In this document: piece after piece, positions 14,259-64,000 of the stretch
How the letters are laid out: the number at the start of each line of letters is the position of its first letter
Position numbering within the stretch: the first letter of the stretch is position 1
Origin: Laetmonice hystrix
Lineage: Eukaryota
NCBI GenBank assembly: GCA_965235115.1
Contig: OZ249436.1
Location: 31,622,001 to 31,686,000, forward strand
DNA: 64,000 nt
Reading direction: 5' to 3'
The notes under the pieces: generated by a model
What the model saw: the letters and a program-made list of their open reading frames with translations, nothing else
What the model was told of the DNA's origin: nothing
The model's database searches: none
Translations under genes and position numbers: made by a program

Positions 14259-14842
14259 CCGCCCATACAATAAATTGTGTACAGTCTATGTCTAGGTTTC
14301 TTCATCCTTGTACAAACAAACGCTTGAGCTCCGCCCATACAATAAATTGTATACACTCTATGTCTAGGTTTGGTCATCCTCGTAAAAACACACGCTTGAG
14401 CTCCGCCCATACAATAAATTGTATACACTCTATGTCTAGGTTTCTTCCTCCTCGTACAAACAAACGCTTGAGCTCCGCCCATACAATAAATTGTATACCC
14501 TCTATGTCTAGGTTTCTTCCTCCTCGTACAAACAAACGCTTGAGCTCCGCCCATACAATAAATTGTATACACTCTATGTCTAGGTTTCTTCCTCCTCGTA
14601 CAAACAAACGCTTGAGCTCCGCCCATACAATAAATTGTATACCCTCTATGTCTAGGTTTCTTCATCTTCGTACAAACAAACGCTTGAGCTCCGCCCATAC
14701 AATAAATTGTATACCCTCTATGTCTAGGTTTCTTCATCCTCGTACAAACAAACGCTTGAGCTCCGCCCATACAATAAATTGTGTACAGTCTATGTCTAGG
14801 TTTCGTCATCCTCGTACAAACAAACGCCCGAGCTCCGCCCAT
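14259..14842. repeat. 72-bp minisatellite, about 8 copies
   Basis: gcccatacaataaattgtatacactctatgtctaggtttcttc...cgcttgagctcc recurring every 72 nt. Confidence 0.95.
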
Positions 14843-21306: not shown

Positions 21307-22877
21307 TGAGAACAAACACACCCCAATTTAATCATTACATATGGAAAATGATGTCATTCTGAAACATCTTCTGTAAGAAACTATGAGCAGACCTAGGGGA
21401 TCGGCTCTTGTGTACATACATTGATAGGAGTGCACGTAAAGCCGCAAGGACCGTGGTCGTAAACGTGCAATGTTAACATGTCTGTATGAGGCCTGAGGCA
21501 GAAAGACGCCACATTTGGACATCAAAGAGAGAAAAGAAATTATTACACGGCGAGTGTACATCTATACCGTTCAAAACGGATATAGAAACGCTTTGTATAC
21601 TGATATGAAAACGAAAAGAGCTGCTTCGAAAGTGTCTATTTATTTTGGACAAACACCAATAATCAGTTCGTTGAGCCCCAAGTGCAATGAACCCGTCAAC
21701 CCACGGCATCTATTCAGTGGGAAGTTGGAGTTTTGATCGCCGCCGCTCAAGGACGTCACCACAACGAAGCCCGCCTCGTATACCCGCCGGCGATCTATAG
21801 CACTGCTCTGAGAAACGAGAGTCACTTCGCAGCCATGAGGAACCGAACGAAAATGGCGGCGCAACTTGGCTGCGTGGTAGAAACCTGCCGCGGGCTGGCA
21901 AGTTGGCAACTCTTTGTGGCCGACACTTCTCTACTATTGTTGACGGATACCGTATGGGAAAGTTTGTGCGCGATCCGCCACTACAAGGACAAAGACAAAG
22001 TCTTTGAGTTTTGCTACAGGCTGCTGCTGCAGCTTTCAGAGTCACGTTCTCTAGAAATGCACCGGCTGTGGATACGTGAATGTATCGACTGCGCCTGTAG
22101 ACCAGTCCTGTTGACGAGAACCAGCAGTCATACCACAGCCAAGAGTGACGGCTCAAGCAGCGCCATGCTGTTTGCGTCGGCCCTTCCACTTTAATTTCAA
22201 TTATTGGCCGCACAGCGCGCTGCCTCAATCTTCCCGCATTCAATACATTGACGATTACCCGATTTCTTATTGAATCGGCGCGCCAATATCAGTTGGTCTG
22301 TTGCACAAGGGATATGGACTTGATGACATTTGCAGACCCCCCCCCATCCCCATCTACACACGGCTGACTTCGTCACATAAAATTATGTCGCTCAGAGTAA
22401 ATGGTACATTAATTAACGCTGTTTTCTTGTCAGTAGATGAAGGAATTGCGAAAAAGTTTCCTCAAGTGGGACGTTCAGTGTTGGCTGACGTCTGTTCATA
22501 CTCTCCCATGTTTACTAACTCGTTACTAATCTCATGATGTCCATGGCTAATGGCTTCGCTTGCTGAAACGTTAAAGATTGATAACCAAAAGTTTTAGGTC
22601 AATAAACCCGTCTGTCAGTCTCTGCTTGAATCAAAATAGACTTCGGGGTTAGACATAGCCGGGCCTTTCAAGTTGGTGTTGGGGGAAGTGCACTATCCCC
22701 ATTTACATCATTACTTTTAACCGCCCGTTGTAACTTATTAGGCATTCTGTTGTAACGGGTAGGCTCGAGTTTCTGACGGCATGGACGTGTGTGGTATGTG
22801 TGGGCGCGCGCCAAGTTCAGTCCGTCAGGGTGCACGTGGTCTGATGTGAGTGAAACATTCGCCCACGCATCTACTCT

Positions 22878-25260
22878 ACAGGTTCGGACTATACCCGCCT
22901 CCACATTCCATCTACACTATAGGCTCGGACTTCCCGCCTCCACATTCCATCTACACTATAGGCTCGGACTTCCCGCCTCCACATTCCATCTACACTATAG
23001 GCTCGGACTCCCCGCCTCCACATTCCATCTACTCTATAGGCTCGGACTTCCCGCCTCCACATTACATCTACTCTATAGGCTCGGACTCCCCGCCTCCACA
23101 TTCCATCTACACTATAGGCTCGGACTTCCCGCCTCCACATTCCATCTACACTATAGGCTCGGACTCCCCGCCTCCACATTACATCTATACACTATAGGCT
23201 CGGACTTCCCGCCTCCACATTACATCTATACACTATAGGCTCGGACTTCCCGCCTCCACATTCCATCTACACTATAGGCTCGGACTTCCCGCCTCCACAT
23301 TACATCTACTCTATAAGCTCGGACTTCCCGCCTCCACATTCCATCTACACTATAGGCTCGGACTTCCCGCCTCCACATTCCATCTACACTATAGGCTCGG
23401 ACTCCCCGCCTCCACATTACATCTATACACTATAGGCTCGGACTTCCCGCCTCCACATTACATCTATACACTATAGGCTCGGACTTCCCGCCTCCACATT
23501 CCATCTACACTATAGGCTCGGACTTCCCGCCTCCACATTACATCTACACTATAGGCTCGGACTTCCCGCCTCCACATTACATCTACACTATAGGCTCGGA
23601 CTTCCTGCCTCCACATTACATCTATACACTATAGGCTCGGACTTCCCGCCTCCAAATTACATCTACACTATAGGCTCGGACTTCCCGCCTCCACATTCCA
23701 TCTACACTATAGGCTTGGACTTCCCGCCTCCACATTCCATCTACTCTATAGGCTCGGACTCCCCGCCTTCACTTTACATCTACACTATAGGCTCGGACTT
23801 CCCGCCTCCACATTACATCTACACTATAGGCTCGGACTTCCCGCCTCCACATTACATCTACACTATAGGCTCGGACTTCCCGCCTCCACATTCCATCTAC
23901 ACTATAGGCTCGGACTTCCCGCCTCCACATTCCATCTACACTATAGGCTCGGACTCCCCGCCTCCACATTCCATCTACACTATAGGCTCGGACTTCCCGC
24001 CTCCACATTCCATCTACACTATAGGCTCGGACTCCCCGCCTCCACATTCCATCTACTCTAGAGGCTCGGACTTCCCGCCTCCACATTACATCTACACTAT
24101 AGGCTTGGACTTCCCGCCTCCACATTCCATCTACTCTATAGGCTCGAACTTCCTGCCTCTACATTACGTCTACACTATAGGCTCGGACTTCCCGCCTCCA
24201 CATTCCATCTACACTACAGGCTCGGACTTCCCGCCTCCACATTCCATCTACACTATAGGCTCGGACTTCCCGCCTCCACATTACATCTACACTATAGGCT
24301 TGGACTTCCCGCCTCCACATTCCATCTACTCTATAGGCTCGAACTTCCTGCCTCTACATTACGTCTACACTATAGGCTCGGACTTCCCGCCTCCACATGA
24401 CATCTACACTATAGGCTCGGACTTCCCGCCTCCACATTCCGTCTACACTATAGGCTCGGACTTCCCGCCTCCACTTTACATCTACACTATAGGCTGGGAC
24501 TTCCCGCCTCCACATTACATCTACACTATAGGCTCGGACTTCCCGCCTCCACATTCCATCTACTCTATAGGCTCGGACTTCCCGCCTCCACATTACGTCT
24601 ACACTATAGGCTCGGACTCCCCGCCTCCACATTCCATCTACACTATAGGCTCGGACTTCCCGCCTCCACATCCCAGCTACTCTATAGGCTCGGACTTCCC
24701 TCCTCCACATTCCATCTACTCTATAGGCTCGGACTTCCCTCCTCCACATCCCATCTACTCTATAGGCTCGGACTTCCCGCCTTCAAATTACATCTACACT
24801 ATAGGCTCGGACTCCCCGCCTCCACATTCCATCTACTCTATAGGCTCGGACTTCCCTCCTCCACATCCCAGCTACTCTATAGGCTCGGACTTCCCGCCTC
24901 CACATTACGTCTACTCTATAGGCTCGGACTTCCCGCCTCCACATTACATCTACTCTATAAGCTCGGACTTCCCGCCTCCACATTCCATCTACACTATAGG
25001 CTCGGACTTCCCGCCTCCACATTACATCTACTCTATAGGCTCGGACTTCCCGCCTCCACATTACATCTACTCTATAGGCTCGGACTTCCTGCCTCTACAT
25101 TACATCTACTCTATAGGCTCGGACTTCCCGCCTCCACATTACATCTACACTATAGGCTCGGACTTCCCGCCTCCACATTCCATCTACTCTATAGGCTCGG
25201 ACTTCCCGCCTCCACATTACATCTACACTATAGGCTCGGACTTCCCGCCTCCACATTATA
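22878..25260. repeat. 39-bp minisatellite, about 60 copies
   Basis: ctataggctcggacttcccgcctccacattccatctaca unit; occasional 41-bp variants. Confidence 0.97.
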
Positions 25261-28174: not shown

Positions 28175-28812
28175 ATGGGGATGCGTACATCATCACTTGT
28201 ATATGTTTGACTGACATATATATATTTTTTATTTGGTCTCTCCTTGATCGAAATGTGACTGATATACACATTTATCACACGGTACATTTACCCTATATAG
28301 GACTACTAAAACAGTGCAGGAAGGGACAAAACAAAGTTACGAATGTTTTGCATAAGTCCGGAAATGATGGTTAGAATAACTGTATAGTGTCCTGTGTGGG
28401 GAGTGGTCCCATCTTGTTGGAAACATTGTACATCCCTAGTAATGTTGCCTAATCTTCGCTGACACAAAACTCTCCAAAACTTGCGAATCACCTTCATATT
28501 GATCTAGCATATAGAGTGGCTAAGACAGAAATTTTGACTAGCACAAATTGGCGATAGTTTTCCCACTGGTAACCCCTGGAAATATTTGAATTTGAAGCGA
28601 CATGAGATATAGGTAAACGATCTGAAAAGATGCAAGATTAAAAGAAAACTCGATGAGAGTTTAGCCAAAGTTATGCTGCTGTCACTTCCAAAAACGTAAA
28701 TTATAAAACATACTGCGATTATAAAGAGAACGTACGGGGTTTAAAGCAAAAATCACAAAAGAAAGTATGTACATGTATACGGATACAAAGTGTTATCCAT
28801 CCAGGTATTATT

Positions 28813-29642
28813 TACCGTATATTGCCTCACACTATGTGAGCGTTCAAAGTATCAGTCTCATTGTATTGGTTGAATGGTTGGTTACCTTATATATGCCTCA
28901 CACTATGTGAGCGTTCAAGTTACCAGTCTCATTGTACTGGTTGAATGGTTACCTTATATATGCCTCACACTATGTGAGCGTTCAAATTACCAGTCTCATT
29001 GTACTGGTTGAATGGTTGGTTACTTTATATATGCCTCACACTATGTGAGCGTTCAAGTTACCAGTCTCATTGTACTGGTTGAATGGTTACCTTATATATG
29101 CCTCACACTATGTGAGCGTTCAAATTATCAGTCTCATTGTATTGGTTGAATGGTTGGTTACCTTATATATGCCTCACACTATGTGAGCGTTCAAGTTACC
29201 AGTCTCATTGTACTGGTTGAATGGTTACCTTATATATGCCTCACACTATGTGAGCGTTCAAATTACCAGTCTCATTGTACTGGTTGAATGGTTGGTTACT
29301 TTATATATGCCTCACACTATGTGAGCGTTCAAGTTACCAGTCTCATTGTACTGGTTGAATGGTTACCTTATATATGCCTCACACTATGTGAGCGTTCAAA
29401 TTATCAGTCTCATTGTATTGGTTGAATGGTTAGTTACCTTATATATGCCTCACACTATGTGAGCGTTCAAGTTACCAGTCTCATTGTACTGGTTGAATGG
29501 TTACCTTATATATGCCTCACACTATGTGAGCGTTCAAATTACCAGTCTCATTGTACTGGTTGAATGGTTGGTTACTTTATATATGCCTCACACTATGTGA
29601 GCGTTCAAGTTACCAGTCTCATTGTACTGGTTGAATGGTTAC
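28813..29642. repeat. Tandem repeat with alternating 71/67-bp units (12 units, 276-bp higher-order period)
   Basis: gcctcac starts at 28824, 28895, 28962, 29033, 29100, 29171...29585. Confidence 0.93.
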
Positions 29643-43463: not shown

Positions 43464-43776
43464 ACTACGCACCCACCGCTTCGCCAACCGATCAAACTCC
43501 AAAACTGGATCAGGTCAGCATACGGGCATATAGGTCTCGTCCGATAAAATAACTGTTGGAGCGCAACTTTGGTCAACAGAGAGCAAAGAGGGTAGCGCTG
43601 TAGAAACTTTGCCAATGTACGGCAAGTCCGTTGTCCTTGTCCAAGAAGCAAGAGGGCGTTGTAAGGCGGTAAATAAGACAGTTCTGCGTGGCACGTTACG
43701 CCCTGTACTTGCTTCCCGGCTCCATGGGGGGAAGTAGAACCCGACGACAGATGTCACTCGAGTTAAGAGCAGCTTC

Positions 43777-53325: not shown

Positions 53326-53862
53326 CTAAGTATTGGGCGATACGGGATTTGGTCTTGCAGCGGTCGGCCCACTTCGGTGCTCTTTGTCCAGATGCTCCTT
53401 CAGATATTGACTGTAGCGGAATCCCTCTCCACATATCGAACACAAGAAGCTGTTGATCTTGGTATGTACCGTAATGTGTGCCTTGAGATTATTGCTAGCC
53501 GTGAATCCCTTCCCGCAGTACTGACACTTGTACGGGTAGATTCCCTTGTGGGTGTTCATGTGCAGTTTGTGGCCTGACGCCGACGAGAACGTTTTGCCGC
53601 AGGTCGTACATGAGTAGGGCCTGGCCGGGCGGTCGCTCTGAAGGAACACCCGGCTCCGCTGCAGCGTGGCCGGCCAGACGTGGGGCGACATGTCGAAGGG
53701 GATGTATCGGTTGGTCGATTCGCCCTTCAGGACGAGCGCCGTCTGTTGCATCATGTGGGAAGCGAGAAGCTGAGCCATGTTCTCGTCACGGCCGCTAGAT
53801 GTCGCGTCGGATCGCTTGATGGTGTCGGCGTCGCGTGGAGTCGCAGCATGGAATGTTTCGTT
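53326..53862 (-). CDS. Alternative terminal exon D: three C2H2 zinc fingers
   Basis: ttcgactttgcatatttccag|AAC phase-0 acceptor; CTTC..HMNTH, CQYC..HITVH, CSIC..HLDKEH; own stop. Confidence 0.87.
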   Translation of the reverse strand, partial: NETFHAATPRDADTIKRSDATSSGRDENMAQLLASHMMQQTALVLKGESTNRYIPFDMSPHVWPATLQRSRVFLQSDRPARPYSCTTCGKTFSSASGHKLHMNTHKGIYPYKCQYCGKGFTASNNLKAHITVHTKINSFLCSICGEGFRYSQYLKEHLDKEHRSGPTAARPNPVSPNT

Positions 53863-55596: not shown

Positions 55597-56295
55597 TTAT
55601 TGTCTGGGTCCCTGGCGATCAGTGGCGCTGCACCTTGTTTCATCACTGTCGGCCGGGACACCTCGATCTGACTCAATTCTGGCCACTGACGTTTCTATAG
55701 AGATCACCTCGGTGGCTGACCGCGGATGTAATTCGAGACCTGTGGGGGCGCCACTGCACGGTTGTTGACACGATAACATGGCTAACGTGTCAATAAACGT
55801 GGCTTCGTCCGAGTGGCTCCTGTGTATGTGGGCCATCAGGTCCTTCTTGTACCTGAACTCCTTTTGACAGAAGCCACACTTGAATTCAAAAACATTCATA
55901 TGAGATGTGAGGTGACCGCGCAGATTCGACTTGCACGTGAAACCCTTTCCACAGAATTGACATTTCAGAGGATACACGCCCTTGTGGCGGTCAACGTGCA
56001 GCTTGTGTCCAACCACGGACGAAAACCGCTTGTCGCAAATACTGCAAACAAACGGTCGTACTTTGGAACCGTGCGAGTCCCAACCCTTGGACATAACGTT
56101 TTGCCACGGAGTCTGCCGCACGCACGCACTATGCGGGCTTCTCGGAGATTGCGTTTGATCATCTGTTTCACTTTTCCGACTCGTTCTGGACCGGTGGTCC
56201 CGAATCCGTTCCACTTGACCGGCCAGGGTCTGAGCGTGGACATGAGCATCGTTTAGAAATGGCGATGTGTGGAGCCTGGGTTTGGTGTCCACCAT
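55597..56295 (-). CDS. Alternative terminal exon C: three C2H2 zinc fingers
   Basis: ctctgttccattggttgcag|ATG phase-0 acceptor; CSIC..HVDRH, CQFC..HLTSH, CGFC..HIHRSH; stop, then AATAAA (minus) at 55473-55478. Confidence 0.85.
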   Translation of the reverse strand: MVDTKPRLHTSPFLNDAHVHAQTLAGQVERIRDHRSRTSRKSETDDQTQSPRSPHSACVRQTPWQNVMSKGWDSHGSKVRPFVCSICDKRFSSVVGHKLHVDRHKGVYPLKCQFCGKGFTCKSNLRGHLTSHMNVFEFKCGFCQKEFRYKKDLMAHIHRSHSDEATFIDTLAMLSCQQPCSGAPTGLELHPRSATEVISIETSVARIESDRGVPADSDETRCSATDRQGPRQ

Positions 56296-56844: not shown

Positions 56845-57814
56845 AAACTTGCTTGGGCGTAATGACGAGTATATGAGTTGAGCACGGAGCTGTCACACAA
56901 ACGGAGTGATGGGTAACCCTCATTGACGGTTCTGACTTGAACCATCCGTCTCTCTTCTTGTCACAGAGTCCCTACAAATCTACCAGTACCTGATTCATTC
57001 ATCCACAAGGCCTATGTAGAGTCATGATGACTTGCCTCTAACTTATCACTATGAGGTTCTCTTATATCTTCTTCTCACCAAAATAACATGACAACATAAC
57101 CGAGAATGAGAAAGGTTTATCTCAAAGTCAACCAATACTAATTATTGTCATTTTCGCACAATCACAAATCGAGACATTGGCACCAGATAACAATAATTTC
57201 CTGAAAGTATCTGTACACTTAACTATGACAAAAATAACCATAGAATTACGCTGGAAATGATTCCCATAAAGTCCCGACGTCAAGGTCTGCTGCTTTGTTG
57301 GATAACTTCTCCGTCATATTGACTGTTGTCGCTGTCCAGAATGGGAAGAAAAACTAAATTTTATCCTGTACAAAACATTCCGCAGCACCAGCCACACATT
57401 CCTCCGGGTTACCAATCTGTATTATATCAGTACGGAGGTCAGGTACTTTAAAATAATTTTAAAAATATAATCATATATAAAATAAATAACAAAGGAGCAA
57501 ACCAGGATCATCACTTATGCTGGTATCAAGTCAGACAGCATTATTTAAGCAGTCCTCTTACTTATATTCGCAAGGTCATATTGCAAGAATGGCAACATTG
57601 ATCAAACTGAGGCTGGCTGTCATCTGCAATCGCCCACTGTTCAGATAGATACTGAAGTTTCCGCCTCAAGTCAAAAGTCAAGTCAAAACAAATGAGCACT
57701 ATATGTAAGATCCATCGTTGGGGTTATATATCTGCCTCCATTATTCTCTTGCGCCACCCTCTGACCGACCCTCAGTGGGCCTGTGAATGAACAGTCATTG
57801 ACCTCTGACTGATC

Positions 57815-58240
57815 TCAGACTGACATCTCCCTGATGTCCTCCCCGATGTCCCTACTAAAGGCAGGTGGCGGCAGACCTTGCCTGCGGGAGTTACACTGGG
57901 AGCGTGCTGGCCGGCTGCCGTCGGAACCACTCCAGTGTCGGGTCCAGATCCGCCACACTGTCGTCTTGCCCAGACAGAAGAGGTCAGCCGTCTGGGTGAG
58001 CAGCCCGAATGGAACACTCCCCGACGTCAGGTTGCCTCCATTCTCAACGATATGCGCAACTACAATCCGCCTCTCCTCTTGAGTTGTGGCCTTCACCTCC
58101 CGACCTCTGATATTGATGCGCGGTCCATAGCGAACTCCCACCGCGGCGGTGGCGGCAGACGGCTTGACTGTAAGGTTGGAGGCAGAGCCATAGAACGACA
58201 AAGGAGCAGGTCTCTGTATCCATCCCGCGGTAGACTGAGT
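57815..58240 (-). CDS. Alternative terminal exon B: paired/Tc1-transposase-like HTH
   Basis: ttgtttctggaccttgacag|ACT phase-0 acceptor; TQSTAGW...RINIRGRE...ERRIVVAHIVENGGNLTSGSVPFGLLTQTADLFCLGKTTVWRIW; aligns without gaps to exon A; own stop. Confidence 0.72.
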   Translation of the reverse strand, partial: TQSTAGWIQRPAPLSFYGSASNLTVKPSAATAAVGVRYGPRINIRGREVKATTQEERRIVVAHIVENGGNLTSGSVPFGLLTQTADLFCLGKTTVWRIWTRHWSGSDGSRPARSQCNSRRQGLPPPAFSRDIGEDIREMSV

Positions 58241-58920
58241 CTGTCAAGGTCCAGAAACAACACGGATACAGTATCATGTAGTGTCAGACATCACCTTGGG
58301 TCTAGTCAGATGAATGTGGCACTCGCAGCACTTAGTGACCCGGCATTCTGGTACTACATCAGGGATGGAGTTGGAGTAGAAACTAGTACTTCAACAACTG
58401 TTGGTTCGATTACATGGGGTCAGGCGTTCACATATGGCACAAAGAATGAAGTTCATACTCGACAGGGCTATATATAATTATTATATTCCATCGTAAATTA
58501 TAAGACAACTATAAAAGACTTAAAGAATGTATACGAGACAACTCATAACTCCTATCATACCATTTCTTTTTAAAAGTTACTGCACAAACATCACAGACAC
58601 AGATAATTACATGTACTGGATATCAACAAGACATCTTTACATCTAGAGTAATACGTTTCTCCAATTGATAACAGGATATAAATCTTTCAATGTCTGAGTG
58701 TATAACAGCAAATAGCACTTTCTGAAACTTCTTTCATATTGGCACTTCATTTGTCAACCTTTGCCGCTACTGATCAACTTATAATCTTACAACAATGAAA
58801 AGATAGGATGACATGAACTCATAAAAATCCAGGTTTTGACACCTTATGTTACCGTTCTCTTCCATAACTCTTTATGCTCATAACCAAGTACTCTCATGAC
58901 AGGTAATCTTTTGGCGTTTA

Positions 58921-59195
58921 AAGCCTGCCATACACTATACAATTCCCAGTCGGCAGCAAATCACACGCCCCGGCACACTATACGACTCGAGTCATAAGCC
59001 CCCTCACACTTTGAGTTTGAGATCCGACTGTGGGTGACTGTGATCCGATTCAAAATTCGAATCGACTGTTTGGGGCCTTGCGACCCATTCCGATCGTCGT
59101 AGGCGAGTCGTAGGCGAGTCATAAGCAAGTCATAAGCGGGTCGTAAGCTCCAGAATGCGATCGGATCATAAGAAAATTGTATAGTGTGTGGGGAG
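58921..59195. mobile_element. Harbinger-like MITE remnant
   Basis: ccatacactatacaatt / aattgtatagtgtgtgg inverted pair with internal gagtcgtaggc repeats. Confidence 0.5.
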
Positions 59196-59324
59196 AACGA
59201 CGTTGAAAAAACTCCTCAGAGGACTGCTGTGTTTTATCAGTTAATACTTGATGTCTATCCTGACACCCAGGTTTAGTACCGGGTTAAGTCTTTCTGGTAG
59301 AGCCTTAACACCTTCAGGATTAAT

Positions 59325-59747
59325 TCAGGAATAGTTCCACGGCTTGTCCCTGTTTGTACCTTGTGAGCAGTTCATATTTTCTTGCTCCAACATTGACTCT
59401 TGTGGAGAGCAGTGCTCGTTTGCAGTCCGGCTGCAAGAATGGCTTTCCACTGGGATTCCATGATCCCCGATATTGACCCTACCAAGACCAGAGACACTTC
59501 GGTGTCTCCAGTACGGGGTCCAGATGTTCCAAATGGTTGCCTTGCTGACCCGGTAAATATTGGAGACTTTGGTAAGGGTGCCGTTCGGGGCCTTCCCAGT
59601 CCGTGGGTTTCCCCCCATGTCGATTATTTGCTGAATGATGTTGACGCGCTCCTTGGTGGACACAACCCCGATCCGGCGACCCTTTTGGTTGACTTTGGAT
59701 GTGCCGTCCCCTGTGGCTGGGGGCCACCTGCACTGCCACCCCATGGT
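59325..59747 (-). CDS. Alternative terminal exon A: paired/Tc1-transposase-like HTH
   Basis: ctttttgtcttcccaccag|ACC phase-0 acceptor; TMGWQ...KVNQKGRR...ERVNIIQQIIDMGGNPRTGKAPNGTLTKVSNIYRVSKATIWNIW; own stop codon. Confidence 0.72.
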   Translation of the reverse strand, partial: TMGWQCRWPPATGDGTSKVNQKGRRIGVVSTKERVNIIQQIIDMGGNPRTGKAPNGTLTKVSNIYRVSKATIWNIWTPYWRHRSVSGLGRVNIGDHGIPVESHSCSRTANEHCSPQESMLEQENMNCSQGTNRDKPWNYS

Positions 59748-61249
59748 CTGGTGGGAAGACAAAAAGTTCTCTTTTAGTTTGTGTGCGGTGGGTTCGGTAA
59801 GCAATGGTCGAGGGAAAGATCAGCCTGCTGGCAGCACACATTCCAGATGAACGTCAGCCTTGGCTAGTACTTCGGCCAGTCTCACTTCCTGCAGAAATGC
59901 TGGCTTACTTGGGATTGTTCCAATAAGTTCAGTCTTGGGGAACAAAATACCGGACAAAAAGAAACGGAACAAAAAGAACTAAGTTATCAGTTTTAATTGA
60001 TTGACAGCCCACAGAAAAACTGCTCTTTTTTCAAATGACATTTGGAAAATTATGTTAGTTCTTGTGTCACTTCAAAATTAATATAACACATCTGCTATTT
60101 CACGTCTAAGTATTGTAAAGGTGTTTTTTTAAAAATACAGGTTAACTGATAAACGTAACAGTAAACCTGAAACTCAATTCACCAGATGTGCAGTCATAGG
60201 AACATTACAGCCAGCCACCTTAGAATTAAAAAAAGCCAAACGTGCACGTTGTTTTCATTCCAGTTAATCATAGAAATTTATCTATATTTCTAATGACGGG
60301 CAACTCTCCTTCCTTAATCTCCCTTTTGAAGAATTGTTTGCCCTGTTTTTATATTAACTCTGCATGTAATCTCTCTGCCCTGGCAACATCACTCTATAAA
60401 AACGATGGCTTGGCAAGTTGTTGGATTACCGCTATTCAGTGCAAATTGTGAATATTTCTAGTGAAGCACATTTTTTAACAATTTACTTTGTATGACTCCT
60501 GCCACTAGATGTGACACACATATAATTTATCAAAATAAGTACCTTTGTCAGGTGACTGTGAGAATATAACCCTTCAATGACTGCAACCACTGGTTATAAA
60601 AGAGAGACTTATGGTCTGTGTTACATAAATGACTTCTCCAAAAGACGGAAAAGACAGGCCATAGTCGTTGTTATATAAATGCAACAGCTGCTCCTGGTAG
60701 TGAAGAAAGTGCACCCACTGACCCCTGTTCCTGGCTAAAAAGAAATAAATATCTTTCCCACTGGCCATTTCTGGGAGGGAAACATATACCTACTAGTCCT
60801 TCCTAGATGTTTACCACATGAACCACAAGCTCATTCTTAGTAAACCACCCTTGCCATCACTTACATTCTTACATTTTACACTTAAAACTCAGAAAGTTGG
60901 AGCTGTTTGAAATTATTACCTAGTACAAAATTGGAGCACATACTAAAGCTTCTTAAAATGCAGTCATACCCCAAGTTAGTCAGTCCTGAATAGCCTATGA
61001 TGGTAGGCCTAAACGTCAACACGACGTCACAAACATTACCTAAAAAAACTGTGAAAAAGTATGTACATTCATGAGTATAGACACTGCAGTTCTGGAGATA
61101 GTGTAAAGGGCAGATTTCCTTTTAAGTAGATTATTTATATATTGTGTCACACACACCAAAAGAGAAACCTCCATAGAGCACCAGAAAAAAAAAGGATAAA
61201 AGCATAAAGACACCAAGTACCAAGACGTCAGAAAAGATGGTAATCTCAC

Positions 61250-61900
61250 CTGAGTGTGTCCTCCAGGTAAGGGCGAGGAGGGTATGGAGGAGCCTGGAGA
61301 GAAACTGGAGGTTCCGCTGTGTCCAGGCCAGGACATCTGTCCTAACTTAGACTCGTGTGTATTATGTAGAGTGTCACTGTCATCCACTGAATACATGCCA
61401 CCGTGTGGTGGCTCGGATAATCCAAAAGTTTGTTGTATATATTGATCCTGATCACCAGCATCATCCGAGTCTAGGATCTCTTCCTTTATAACAATAGGGT
61501 CTTCTGTTGTGTTTTGATCATCCCGTAACCCAGCCCGCCTTTTTCCATTGTCAGTCCTGTGAAACTCGCTAGGTTCATGCCAGGATCGCTTGCGGAATGA
61601 CGTTTCATTAGCAATATGATCACTAGTTGGTGTTGATGAAGAAGATGATAGCCTTGCTGGCACGACTTTCTGTTCATTGTCTGCAACAACGGACCTGCAC
61701 ATTGAACTAAGGTCCACCCGGCCTTCCTTACTGATCGTTTCATTGATCTTGACCAGAAAGACATCCTGTTTATCAACAGTTATTCCCAACAAACCGTCAA
61801 TGGTGAATTCTAAGTCATAACCGAGGCCATTTTTACAGAGAACCGTGATGGCCTCGGTCAGTAAGGCTTTGATGCGGTCCTGATCTGTGTTTACTACCAT
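61250..61900 (-). CDS. Common coding exon of a multi-isoform DNA-binding protein gene (unassigned ~55-aa N-terminal domain + low-complexity linker)
   Basis: Acceptor ttttttcag at 61953, ATG 61900, 217 open codons MVVNTDQDRIKALLTEAITVLCKNGL...PGGHTQ, donor CAG|GTGAGA phase 0; IKEE motif at 61478-61489. Confidence 0.85.
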
Positions 61901-64000
61901 CTTCACAACTCGTTGTCTCTCCAATTATACCAATCAATCAACCTCTCATATTCTGAAAAAATAAATACATTAATATTCAGTAAAAGTGCCACTGCAGAGA
62001 TTTTTTTAAAGTAAAAATTTGATCCAAACATCATTAGATTACCCTTAACTCGAGTTTTCTCCCAATTAAAAATCTTAAAATACACAATTTTGCACTTTAT
62101 TTTACTTCCCACAAATTGATTTTGGTGCCTGCCAAAGTTCACAGCTGTACATTGCATCAATCAGACTGTATGTCTAGAGAATGCAATATTTAATTTTCAC
62201 CCGCCCATGTGATGGCTCGGGGGTTATTGAAGTCAAAGTGTCCGTCCCGGAAGTCAATGAGGCTTCCCCCGTCCTCTCCCGCCGTCCTGGCCCAGCCGAG
62301 TGACCGAGAGCGAGCGCTGGCCTGAGCACGATCACACTGATGTCAGTCGAGACTAAGCATGGCTGTAACACAGTGCAGTGCAGGGGGTTTCCACGTATCC
62401 CGGAAACCCTTTCCCCCTTTTGGACAGTTTGGTAAAAAAAAGGGGATGTAAAATCAGGCCTGATTTTAAGATGTGAACGATCGTTTTGTTCGCGTGTCAT
62501 TCACCTAAAATGGAAAGGCCGAGAACGAAAATCCGTTCACCTGCAAATTTTGCAATCCTGAGATTAACAGGTGAACGATCGTTTCGTTTGCCTGTCGTTT
62601 ACCTAAAATAAATAACGGGAATAAAAAATGGGTTACGCAAATTTCCCCTAATTTCAGGCCTGTAAAATGCATTATTTTTTAACCAAAGGAAACTTTCATA
62701 TTTCCAAACAAGATGTCCCGAAATTGCTTTATTTGATGTCTTTCTTTTTAATTTTCCAGAGCATGGCCTAATGGCCATCTCTGGAGTACCGAAACTTTGC
62801 AAACCCCCGTAAAAAATTTCTAGATATGCCAGTGAATTGTTATCAGTTTCAACTGCCTCTGGGGTTTCAGTATTTTCCATCCTCAAAAGACTTGTCATAC
62901 CTTATTTCTGTATAATTTCATAATAAAAGATGTATCTTAAAAGTACTTCTGGAGGATGTGTCCTCGTACAGGATATATATGTGGCATCTGTAAATAGGTG
63001 AGGAATTTTTGGATTCCCCAGGTTGGCAACACTGCTAACGTACTTGAGGTGGAGCTAAATTAGGCCACTTAAAATTAATAAATTGTTTTACATGGCCGGC
63101 CGCCTCAATTTTTTGGCGCCGCCTTGATTTTTTTATATTTTATATTTTTCAAAAAGTCCGTTTTTTTTCATCCCCAAAACCGTTAGAGATCGTCAGTGCA
63201 AGCGCACGCCGCGCACCATCTGTCGGTGGTGCATAAAACGAGTACCCGTGGTCGTTCAGAATATTGAGGACTCTATGTGCATATCTTTTGAAGCTTCAAT
63301 TGTTGGCTTTTTTAATGTTCAGTATTCTAGCTTTAAAATTTCTTGTTAAACCTAGTCTCCCACAGTTCTGTCAGGGTGTTACAGTTAAAGTGACCCTCAA
63401 GGTATAGAATGGTTGTACAAAATGTTGAGATATTGAGAAATTAAAAGTATTTTTCCAGTATTGGTGATCTCTGCTGTCCTTCTTCTTGTCGAGGAAAAAT
63501 ATAAAATATAAAATATAAAATGCCCTACTCACCAACATTTCAGAAGTTGGAGTCATGTAAAACAATTTATTAATTTTAAGTGGCCTTATGATCAATGTTC
63601 AAAAAATGAAGCGGCATATATTCAATTGTAATTGCTGAGGTCACTTCTGACAGGCCAGCCAACTTCCCCAGACACTCTGACCAACCAATGAAAACACTTT
63701 GACCAACCCCACCGGACACTCTGACCAACTGCCGGACACACTGACTTGCCGGATGCTCTGACCATCGGACGCACTGACTAGGATAAATCTGACGGCCCAT
63801 ACCATGGCCATGCCAATAGATGGTAATTTTGTCTTTTTGACATTTTCTATCATTTAGTATTTAGATATCTACACTAAGAAGACAAAGAGGGGCCCTTTGC
63901 ACTTTGTTGATCCCAAACCTAATCTGCTATAATGCTATGACCTATGTGTGAGCCTAGTATAATTAATATTATAGCTTTACCTTACAGTTACAATAATTGT

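What the first reader, a model, noticed from the sequence alone, without database searches (positions are those of the whole stretch)
57815..59747. Two paralogous HTH exons that look like domesticated paired/Tc1-type transposase DNA-binding domains
Seen: a gap-free alignment of about 63 aa between exon A (VNQKGRR..ERVNIIQQIIDMGGNPRTGKAPNGTLTKVSNIYRVSKATIWNIW) and exon B (INIRGRE..ERRIVVAHIVENGGNLTSGSVPFGLLTQTADLFCLGKTTVWRIW). The pattern is conserved despite low identity, frames are intact, and I see no DDE domain or TIRs around them. Established: the paired PAI subdomain starts with a VNQLG beta motif followed by an HTH and is related to Tc1/mariner transposase DNA-binding domains. Inference: exon capture of a transposase DBD followed by duplication.
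Basis: partly seen in the sequence, partly recalled or inferred. Interest (0 to 1): 0.7.

Follow-up and report, generated by a model that had tools for sequence, protein, structure and literature searches.

The report
Captured transposase domains as swappable tails
An invertebrate (probably annelid) gene appears to keep two old, intact copies of a transposon's DNA-gripping domain as two of four interchangeable last exons behind one shared front exon, so that one gene could make several DNA-binding proteins; the splicing itself has not been seen in RNA.

Summary
Observation confirmed: exons A and B align without gaps over 63 aa (33% identity, E 3e-15). They match only the first (PAI) subdomain of a paired-like DD37E IS630-Tc1-mariner transposase lineage; no second subdomain, catalytic domain or flanking TIRs were found. 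Three copies were found in the genome. Synonymous sites are saturated while the protein is kept, and each exon has its own counterpart in another assembly (81% and 68% identical), so they are domesticated, not debris. At least 38 paralogous head exons exist, many followed by such arrays; the third HTH copy lies in one. This works like Drosophila lola/mod(mdg4) but without a BTB domain. No RNA junction, DNA binding or oligomerisation was shown. The scan noted this family before at three other loci of this genome (unchecked notes). My eight paper searches found no description. New variant of known kinds.

The parts
61250..61952 (-). Shared (common) coding exon: ATG at 61900, 217 codons; first ~60 aa are an unnamed helix + beta-hairpin domain, the rest looks low in structure; acceptor at 61953/61952, phase-0 donor at 61250/61249
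   Evidence: (donor 6 of 7 consensus positions); 38 paralogous exons in genome; AF2 model pLDDT 84.7; 95% identical domain in P0101
59325..59747 (-). Alternative last exon A: 140 codons plus stop; PAI-like HTH at about 59508-59696
   Evidence: phase-0 acceptor, best of the locus by my crude score; AF2 three helices, pLDDT 92; 35 of 43 identical to P0008
57815..58240 (-). Alternative last exon B: 141 codons plus stop; PAI-like HTH at about 57932-58120. 5' end less sure: an out-of-frame acceptor at 58167 scores about the same
   Evidence: 52 of 77 identical to P0005
55597..56295 (-). Alternative last exon Z1: 232 codons, three C2H2 fingers
   Evidence: Pfam zf-C2H2 above cut-off; phase-0 acceptor
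53326..53862 (-). Alternative last exon Z2: 178 codons, three C2H2 fingers
   Evidence: Pfam zf-C2H2 above cut-off; phase-0 acceptor
58928..59191 (.). Unrelated short high-copy MITE-like insertion between A and B (not a TIR of either exon)
   Evidence: 17-nt arms, 94% complementary; summed contig depth 1826 and 3466 in that bin against about 40 and 55 nearby in the two deeper runs

Best explanation
A paired-like DD37E IS630-Tc1-mariner transposon once lay in a gene of a head-plus-variable-tail family. Only its first DNA-binding subdomain (PAI: beta strand, then three helices) was kept, as a last exon with a phase-0 acceptor (homology shown; the insertion event inferred). The exon was duplicated in tandem (A, B) and to a paralogous locus (C), and all copies stayed under purifying selection (shown). 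The shared exon, with a small N-terminal domain and a long linker, is spliced to one of four last exons, giving about 357 aa (A), 358 aa (B), 449 aa (Z1) or 395 aa (Z2) (inferred from splice signals, phases and stops). The products are most likely transcription or chromatin factors: the tail picks the DNA site, and the head domain probably oligomerises and so makes up for the short, half-paired DNA contact, as TTK-type BTB domains do in lola and Mod(mdg4) (inferred by analogy; neither binding nor oligomerisation was shown).
For: Origin: the A/B/C profile gave 60 hits among 1.84 billion proteins. Of 36 scanned, 8 are full DDE_3 transposases above cut-off and 12 match PAX at E<=0.001, 6 above cut-off. 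All 8 have D..37..E spacing; their profile hits A at E 1e-12, C 4e-11, B 7e-8, at positions 3-77 of 361 only. Family profile hits PAX5/8/6/Prd at E 5e-7 to 5e-6 and Sleeping Beauty PAI at 0.018. Foldseek top three: PAX6, Prd, PAX5, TMq 0.67-0.69. Domestication: three searches with A, B and P0006 return the same 3 places; a full transposase query returns only exon A. pS 0.72-0.80 against pN 0.38-0.44; pS>pN in 999, 1000 and 1000 of 1000 bootstraps. A pairs with P0008 (98/85) and B with P0005 (100/100) in the tree. Architecture: 71 of 84 domain-bearing ORFs behind head exons have their best acceptor in phase 0, against 84 of 334 antisense controls; 26 of 31 head exons have their best donor in phase 0; only 2 of 84 have a strong donor before the stop. 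8 of 9 coding differences seen in the run contigs are synonymous. One contig of run X4 lies on 61613-61953 and has 77 further letters that leave the window at the predicted acceptor.
Against: No splice junction between the shared exon and any tail was seen, and none of the 120 listed head-domain proteins carries a finger or the HTH (nearly all are read-through gene calls or partial models). A and B have no Pfam PAX hit at E<=1; their best hits are DUF7769 and HTH_Tnp_ISL3 below cut-off. Foldseek E-values are 0.05-0.11 and VIA Z-scores (Tc3 5.8, CENP-B 5.9, top 7.0) are in the range common for small helical domains. B's best-scoring acceptor was out of frame (18.5 against 18.0). The clade A+B+C+relatives has only 92/65 support on 77 columns and the bootstrap had not settled. 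Synteny elsewhere rests on equal contig lengths, not on DNA read. Paralogous exons are not independent data in the phase test, and the splice scores are my own crude ones. None of the 9 SNPs lies in A or in an HTH core.
Confidence: 0.78

Rival explanations
1. Same parts, other joining: the tails are transcribed from their own promoters and are trans-spliced to the shared exon, as in mod(mdg4), or A is also made as a short stand-alone protein from its own ATG.
For: mod(mdg4) makes all isoforms by trans-splicing and lola mixes cis and trans (passages of PMC13490949). Exon A has an ATG in a good context at its second codon and Z1 starts with ATG.
Against: All four tails lie downstream of the shared exon on the same strand, within 8 kb, so cis-splicing suffices. 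Multi-finger ORFs behind head exons were found only on the sense strand; the antisense hits were single motifs.
Confidence: 0.12
2. The HTH comes from the plant/oomycete-type mariner N-terminus (DUF7769) rather than from the DD37E lineage.
For: DUF7769 is the best Pfam hit (18.3 and 14.8 bits, cut-off 27) and the best ESM Atlas row (0.89). One DUF7769 protein, P0039, falls among the stand-alone HTHs in the tree.
Against: Most real hits are DD37E-type N-termini, several of which also match DUF7769 weakly, so the model catches the shared fold. P0039 is on a long branch (1.42). The DD37E profile aligns with A, B and C from the N-x-x-G-R strand on.
Confidence: 0.06
3. A and B are spliced one after the other into one mRNA, giving a two-HTH protein like a rebuilt paired domain.
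For: Weak in-frame GT sites exist after the HTH of A (best 4 of 7 consensus positions), and bipartite HTH domains are the rule in this superfamily (PMC13548663 passages).
Against: The shared exon's donor scores 6 of 7. A and P0008 stay similar up to their stops (alignment). The third copy lies alone among 15 finger ORFs.
Confidence: 0.04
4. A and B are neutral transposon relics, or pieces of a PAX gene, that happen to lie in an intron.
For: No junction seen; the tails behind the HTH have no known domain.
Against: Open frames despite saturated synonymous sites, 3 copies only, counterparts in another assembly that are conserved in the HTH and diverged outside it, phase-0 acceptors, and an insert between helices 1 and 2 that the transposases have and PAX proteins lack.
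Confidence: 0.03

Closest known systems
Drosophila lola and mod(mdg4) (TTK-type BTB genes with alternative 3' exons)
   Same: One constant 5' part with an N-terminal domain, followed by an array of alternative last exons with short DNA-binding modules. 17 of 20 lola isoforms carry different C2H2 fingers and most Mod(mdg4) isoforms carry FLYWCH (PMC11426971 passages), a domain traced to Mutator transposase (PMC10027918 passages).
   Different: The head here is a ~60-aa helix + hairpin with no BTB match in 31 of 31 members. TTK-type BTBs were not found in annelids or molluscs (PMC11426971 passages). The design is spread over at least 38 head exons. The captured module is a Tc1/mariner-type PAI, not FLYWCH. 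Trans-splicing is untested.
Host-transposase fusions (SETMAR, KRABINER; 106 tetrapod fusions, as reviewed in PMC8616336)
   Same: A transposase domain captured by splicing behind a host domain and kept by selection; Tc1/mariner is a main source.
   Different: Only the PAI half is kept; it is one choice among several tails, duplicated within and between loci; the host is an invertebrate; the donor element was not found in the genome.
PAX paired domain; Drosophila CG4570 (DNA-binding-domain-only domestication, PMC13548663 passages)
   Same: Same fold and ultimate source: N-x-x-G strand, then three helices.
   Different: No RED subdomain or linker, an insert of about 11 residues before helix 2, a 3-residue deletion in the beta-turn region, no Pfam PAX match. 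An independent domestication.
DD37E IS630-Tc1-mariner transposases with paired-like N-terminus (example XP_069109704.1 of Argopecten irradians; possibly the DD37E(L31) group of PMC7325037)
   Same: N-terminal 75 residues, including the insert.
   Different: No RED, no DDE domain, no TIRs, 3 copies. Which published DD37E family these transposases belong to was not tested.

Membership tests
PAX genes | Full paired domain (PAI + linker + RED); Pfam PAX above cut-off | tested here: not met
   No PAX hit for A or B at E<=1; transposase profile matches positions 3-77 only
PAX genes / paired-like domains | PAI fold: beta strand plus three-helix HTH | tested here: met
   AF2 pLDDT 92, helices 16-28, 42-50, 54-67; PAX6, Prd, PAX5 top Foldseek rows, prob 0.99-1.0 but E 0.05-0.11; family profile hits PAX chains at E 5e-7 to 5e-6, mostly through members that keep the linker and RED
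IS630-Tc1-mariner transposon (element) | DDE/D catalytic domain in the same ORF or nearby | tested here: not met
IS630-Tc1-mariner transposon (element) | Terminal inverted repeats around the coding part; many copies | tested here: not met
   No bracketing TIR pair in 56900-60900; 3 copies found, a lower bound by the tool's own note
Host-transposase fusion | Domain homologous to a transposase | tested here: met
Host-transposase fusion | Purifying selection and retention in other species | tested here: met
   pN about half of saturated pS between paralogues; counterparts 81% and 68% identical; orthologue dN/dS not computable, no DNA
Host-transposase fusion | Spliced in frame to a host exon in mRNA | tested here: inconclusive
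   Phase-0 donor and acceptors; no junction in the contigs laid
Host-transposase fusion | Sequence-specific DNA binding | not testable with these tools
   needs SELEX, ChIP or gel shift
lola / mod(mdg4) (TTK-BTB genes) | N-terminal BTB domain | tested here: not met
   0 of 31 head domains match a BTB family at E<=0.1; model is one helix and one hairpin of about 57 residues
lola / mod(mdg4) (TTK-BTB genes) | Constant 5' exon plus array of alternative last exons with DNA-binding modules | tested here: met
   At DNA level only: 4 tails here, 15 finger ORFs plus one HTH at C1:19.88-19.91 Mb; phase test 71 of 84
lola / mod(mdg4) (TTK-BTB genes) | Trans-splicing; tails with their own promoters | not testable with these tools
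   no RNA reads
lola / mod(mdg4) (TTK-BTB genes) | Head domain forms oligomers | not tested
DUF7769 (PF24964) | Score above 27 bits | tested here: not met
   18.3 (A) and 14.8 (B) bits; relatives P0006 and P0007 just pass
DD37E(L31) family, for the donor transposases | DD37E spacing | tested here: met
   8 of 8 full-length hits; at least four unrelated DD37E groups exist (PMC7325037, PMC10379824 passages), so this does not name the family
DD37E(L31) family, for the donor transposases | Placement in the L31 clade of a DDE tree | not tested

The most novel reading that the evidence does not exclude
Annelids, and perhaps other spiralians, independently built a genome-wide lola/mod(mdg4)-like system on an undescribed oligomerising head domain. 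Dozens of genes each swap last exons, and their arrays act as landing pads that recruit new DNA-binding modules from transposons. A half paired domain from a DD37E transposase was one such recruit, a second, PAX-independent domestication of the paired-like fold that has been kept and diversified across several species. Mixed oligomers of isoforms would give a combinatorial DNA-binding code.
Probability: 0.45. Interest if true: 0.8.

Novelty: new variant of a known kind. Interest (0 to 1): 0.62.

Why it matters
It would be a second lineage in which a paired-like transposase DNA-binding domain became part of host transcription factors, and it shows a route for that step: capture as one optional last exon, where the gene's other isoforms stay intact. 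It also suggests that the constant-head, variable-tail design thought typical of arthropod TTK-BTB genes arose again in another phylum with an unrelated head. Gene models seen here stop at the head exon, so annotation-based surveys of transposon-derived factors would miss these isoforms. The claims are cheap to test by RT-PCR, long reads and SELEX.

Tried and rejected
Word-indexed search with exon A for longer proteins: 0 of 11 candidates. Pfam DUF7769 in the own genome: no match and no control rang, so uninformative. Sequencing runs: no RNA holder listed. Run X4 (kind not on record, 58 Mb of contigs) has no cover in several bins that are mostly predicted intron while the two deeper runs cover all 30 bins, and its repeat depths do not scale with theirs; this fits RNA but low-depth DNA is not excluded, and lack of cover is no evidence. 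A/B/C profile against PDB sequences: only chance hits. JGI metagenome scan for the HTH: 21 pattern matches, none confirmed. One search had exon B four codons out of register; its A-B and B-C values are void and were redone. Head domain: no Pfam family above cut-off, one weak phage row in the ESM Atlas (0.75), no fold match (best Z 4.2; best Foldseek E 0.67); this does not show a new fold. Homodimer prediction of the head domain: tool not available, nothing folded. A tryptophan near the start of tail exons looked like a signature but was in 10 of 46, against about 11% expected; dropped. Eight repetitive or unrelated rows of the 60 hits (P0010, P0013, P0015, P0036, P0037, P0045, P0046, P0062) were left out of the tree. 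Look-up of earlier findings by head-domain sequence: nothing. Paper searches that found no description of this family; the library lacks most subscription papers, and no supplements were read.

Full report
Observation. They align over 63 residues without gaps, with 21 identities and E 3e-15. The window is G000:C1:31622001-31686000 of a 627-Mb, 35-contig genome. The only named relatives of the gene's head domain among the 120 listed of 599 are from the annelids Ridgeia piscesae and Lamellibrachia satsuma, so the host is probably an annelid; I did not try to identify it. That similar head domains occur in molluscs is my recall, not a call result.

What the domain is. Pfam gives only sub-cut-off hits for A and B (DUF7769, HTH_Tnp_ISL3) and no PAX hit; the ESM Atlas also points to DUF7769 at 0.89, a lead only. 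A profile of A, B and a third genomic copy C found 60 proteins among 1.84 billion. I scanned 36 of them: 8 are 347-369 aa transposases with DDE_3 above cut-off, and 12 match PAX at E<=0.001, 6 above cut-off. One is XP_069109704.1 of Argopecten irradians. All 8 have 37 residues between the second D and the E. A profile of 10 such transposases matches A (E 1e-12), C (4e-11) and B (7e-8) at positions 3-77 of 361 and nothing else in the window or in about 480 kb of fetched DNA. The 38-sequence family profile hits PAX5, PAX8, PAX6 and Prd at E 5e-7 to 5e-6 and Sleeping Beauty PAI at 0.018; the alignment shows an insert of about 11 residues before helix 2 that PAX lacks, and A, B and C carry it. The AF2 model of A has three helices, pLDDT 92. 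Its top Foldseek rows are PAX6, Prd and PAX5 (TMq 0.67-0.69, but E 0.05-0.11). VIA lists Tc3 (Z 5.8, rmsd 2.7, 49 aligned) and CENP-B (Z 5.9, rmsd 2.6, 53 aligned) among many tied HTHs. So A and B are the PAI half of a paired-like DD37E transposase DNA-binding domain. They are not PAX genes. Several unrelated DD37E groups are described (passages of PMC7325037, and PMC10379824); I did not test which one this is.

Domesticated, not debris. Searches of the genome with A, B and P0006 each return the same three places; a full-length transposase returns only exon A. The tool calls such counts lower bounds. Between A, B and C, synonymous sites differ at 0.72-0.80 (saturated) and non-synonymous at 0.38-0.44, with pS>pN in 999, 1000 and 1000 of 1000 bootstraps. 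A, B, C and P0005 share a 3-residue deletion after the G-R strand (52 residues to the conserved W, against 54-59 in 28 of the other 29 rows measured; P0009 was misaligned at 84), which suggests one capture followed by duplication. In a tree of 55 rows (52 of the 60 hits plus A, B, C) the 8 stand-alone HTHs group apart from the transposases together with one long-branched DUF7769 protein (96/97). A pairs with P0008 (98/85) and B with P0005 (100/100). The six-member group has only 92/65, on 77 columns and an unsettled bootstrap. P0008 is 35 of 43 identical to A and P0005 52 of 77 identical to B, with diverged flanks. Both, and P0101 (95% identical to the head domain), have a contig of 573,335 bases. 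Thus 5 of 5 ENA contig lengths that hold a stand-alone HTH recur for a head-exon protein. This is inference from equal lengths; the DNA could not be read. The two Logan proteins (P0007, P0066) are on contigs too short to test.

The gene. Upstream lies an exon at 61250-61952 with an ATG at 61900, a ~60-residue domain and a phase-0 donor. A scan of the minus strand from 61200 to 44000 for strong acceptors followed by 45 or more open codons gave 7 sites; the four longest frames are A (140 codons), B (141), Z1 (232) and Z2 (178), each ending in its own stop. Z1 and Z2 hold three C2H2 fingers each. The next gene, with a peptidase S8 pro-domain, starts near 43500. The head exon has 38 matches in the genome, 31 of them on C1. 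I examined 31 of the 38 with 8-42 kb downstream. Copy C lies among 15 finger ORFs behind the head exon at C1:19879873. Of 84 motif-bearing ORFs behind head exons, 71 have their best acceptor in phase 0, against 84 of 334 antisense control ORFs (Fisher p 1e-23); 26 of 31 head exons have their best donor in phase 0; 2 of 84 have a strong donor before the stop. The scores are my own crude consensus counts, paralogous exons are not independent, and the set includes a few ORFs that do not belong to the family. For B the best score went narrowly to an out-of-frame site at 58167. Of the 40 difference rows shown (79 more were not shown), 9 fall in these frames and 8 are synonymous (p 2e-4 if 27% is expected, an assumed value); none is in A or an HTH core. 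Contigs of run X4, whose kind is not on record, cover parts of the shared exon, B, Z1, Z2 and sequence behind the stops. One lies on 61613-61953 and has 77 more letters that leave the window at the predicted acceptor. No joint between the shared exon and a tail was listed.

How it most likely works. One promoter, one shared exon, and a choice among four last exons with their own stops give four proteins of about 357-449 aa. The tail sets the DNA target: three fingers, or a lone PAI-like HTH. A lone PAI covers a short site, so oligomerisation by the head would supply avidity and allow mixed complexes. The head folds as one helix and a beta-hairpin (pLDDT 84.7), a shape that usually needs partners, but it has no family or fold match and the complex could not be predicted. 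Homology, selection and splice-phase bias are shown; splicing, DNA binding and oligomerisation are inferred.

What is known. lola and mod(mdg4) use the same layout with a TTK-type BTB head; that BTB type was not found in annelids or molluscs (passages of PMC11426971). mod(mdg4) is trans-spliced from tails with their own promoters (passages of PMC13490949). FLYWCH derives from Mutator transposase (passages of PMC10027918; that survey covered six other transposon-derived families and its text has no match for 'paired' or 'PAX'). Transposase capture by splicing is well documented in tetrapods (passages of the review PMC8616336; the primary paper was not read). The paired domain itself comes from a Tc1/mariner-like transposase, and DNA-binding-domain-only domestication is described in Drosophila (passages of PMC13548663). 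Eight searches (listings and abstract starts only for papers not named above) found no description of this head domain or of this capture. Most subscription papers are not in the library, and no supplements were read. The scan's own notes, which I looked up only after reaching this reading, describe the same family at three other loci of this genome; they are unchecked AI notes and add no independent support.

Verdict. The larger finding is the context: a domesticated half paired domain serving as a swappable tail in a BTB-free lola-like gene family. It is a new variant of two known kinds. Confidence in domestication is about 0.95, in alternative-last-exon use about 0.8. Interest 0.62, held down by the lack of RNA junctions and of any functional data.

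Noticed in passing
G000:C1:19918549-19938108 (- strand; L008, L009, L012): At least 15 tandem paralogous ~225-aa exons of a domain with no Pfam match above cut-off lie behind the head exon at C1:19946382, 14 of 15 with best acceptor in phase 0; one or two copies also follow five other head exons. Already noted by the scan as e1-8075044.
   Followed up: partly
L012:8170-8715 (-), L010:8473-9051 (+), L021:6261-6860 (+), L024 near C1:4740783: A second unnamed ~190-aa tail domain recurs behind several head exons; no Pfam match above cut-off.
   Followed up: partly
G000:C1:31691583-31699815 (+; L010, L011), 5.6 kb beyond the window's end: A paralogous head exon points away from the window's gene (head-to-head pair), followed by its own non-finger tails, one basic and coiled-coil-like.
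   Followed up: partly
window 1283-43514 (-): Multi-exon gene with a peptidase S8 pro-domain; looks like a proprotein convertase of the furin/PC1 kind (label recalled).
   Followed up: no
window 22868-25257, 14259-14842, 28812-29642: Tandem arrays: 39-base unit x61, 72-base unit x8, 138-base unit x6, in introns or between genes.
   Followed up: no
window 59745-59747 and 56293-56295 (-): Exon A has an ATG in a good start context at its second codon and Z1 begins with ATG; many tails of the unnamed-domain array do too, so short stand-alone products are possible.
   Followed up: no
G000:C1:30421174-30437930 (L021-L023): A Polinton/Maverick-like element (long polymerase-like ORF, integrase-like, ATPase-like and capsid-like ORFs; labels recalled, not tested) lies between two converging head-exon genes. 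Observed only.
   Followed up: no
G000:C1:36478515-36488855 (+; L018, L019): Paired-class homeobox gene with an OAR-like tail (label recalled) next to a family member.
   Followed up: no
P0073-P0076: Some relatives in other organisms carry two head domains in tandem (seen in P0074 and P0076), which would fit a domain that works as a dimer.
   Followed up: no
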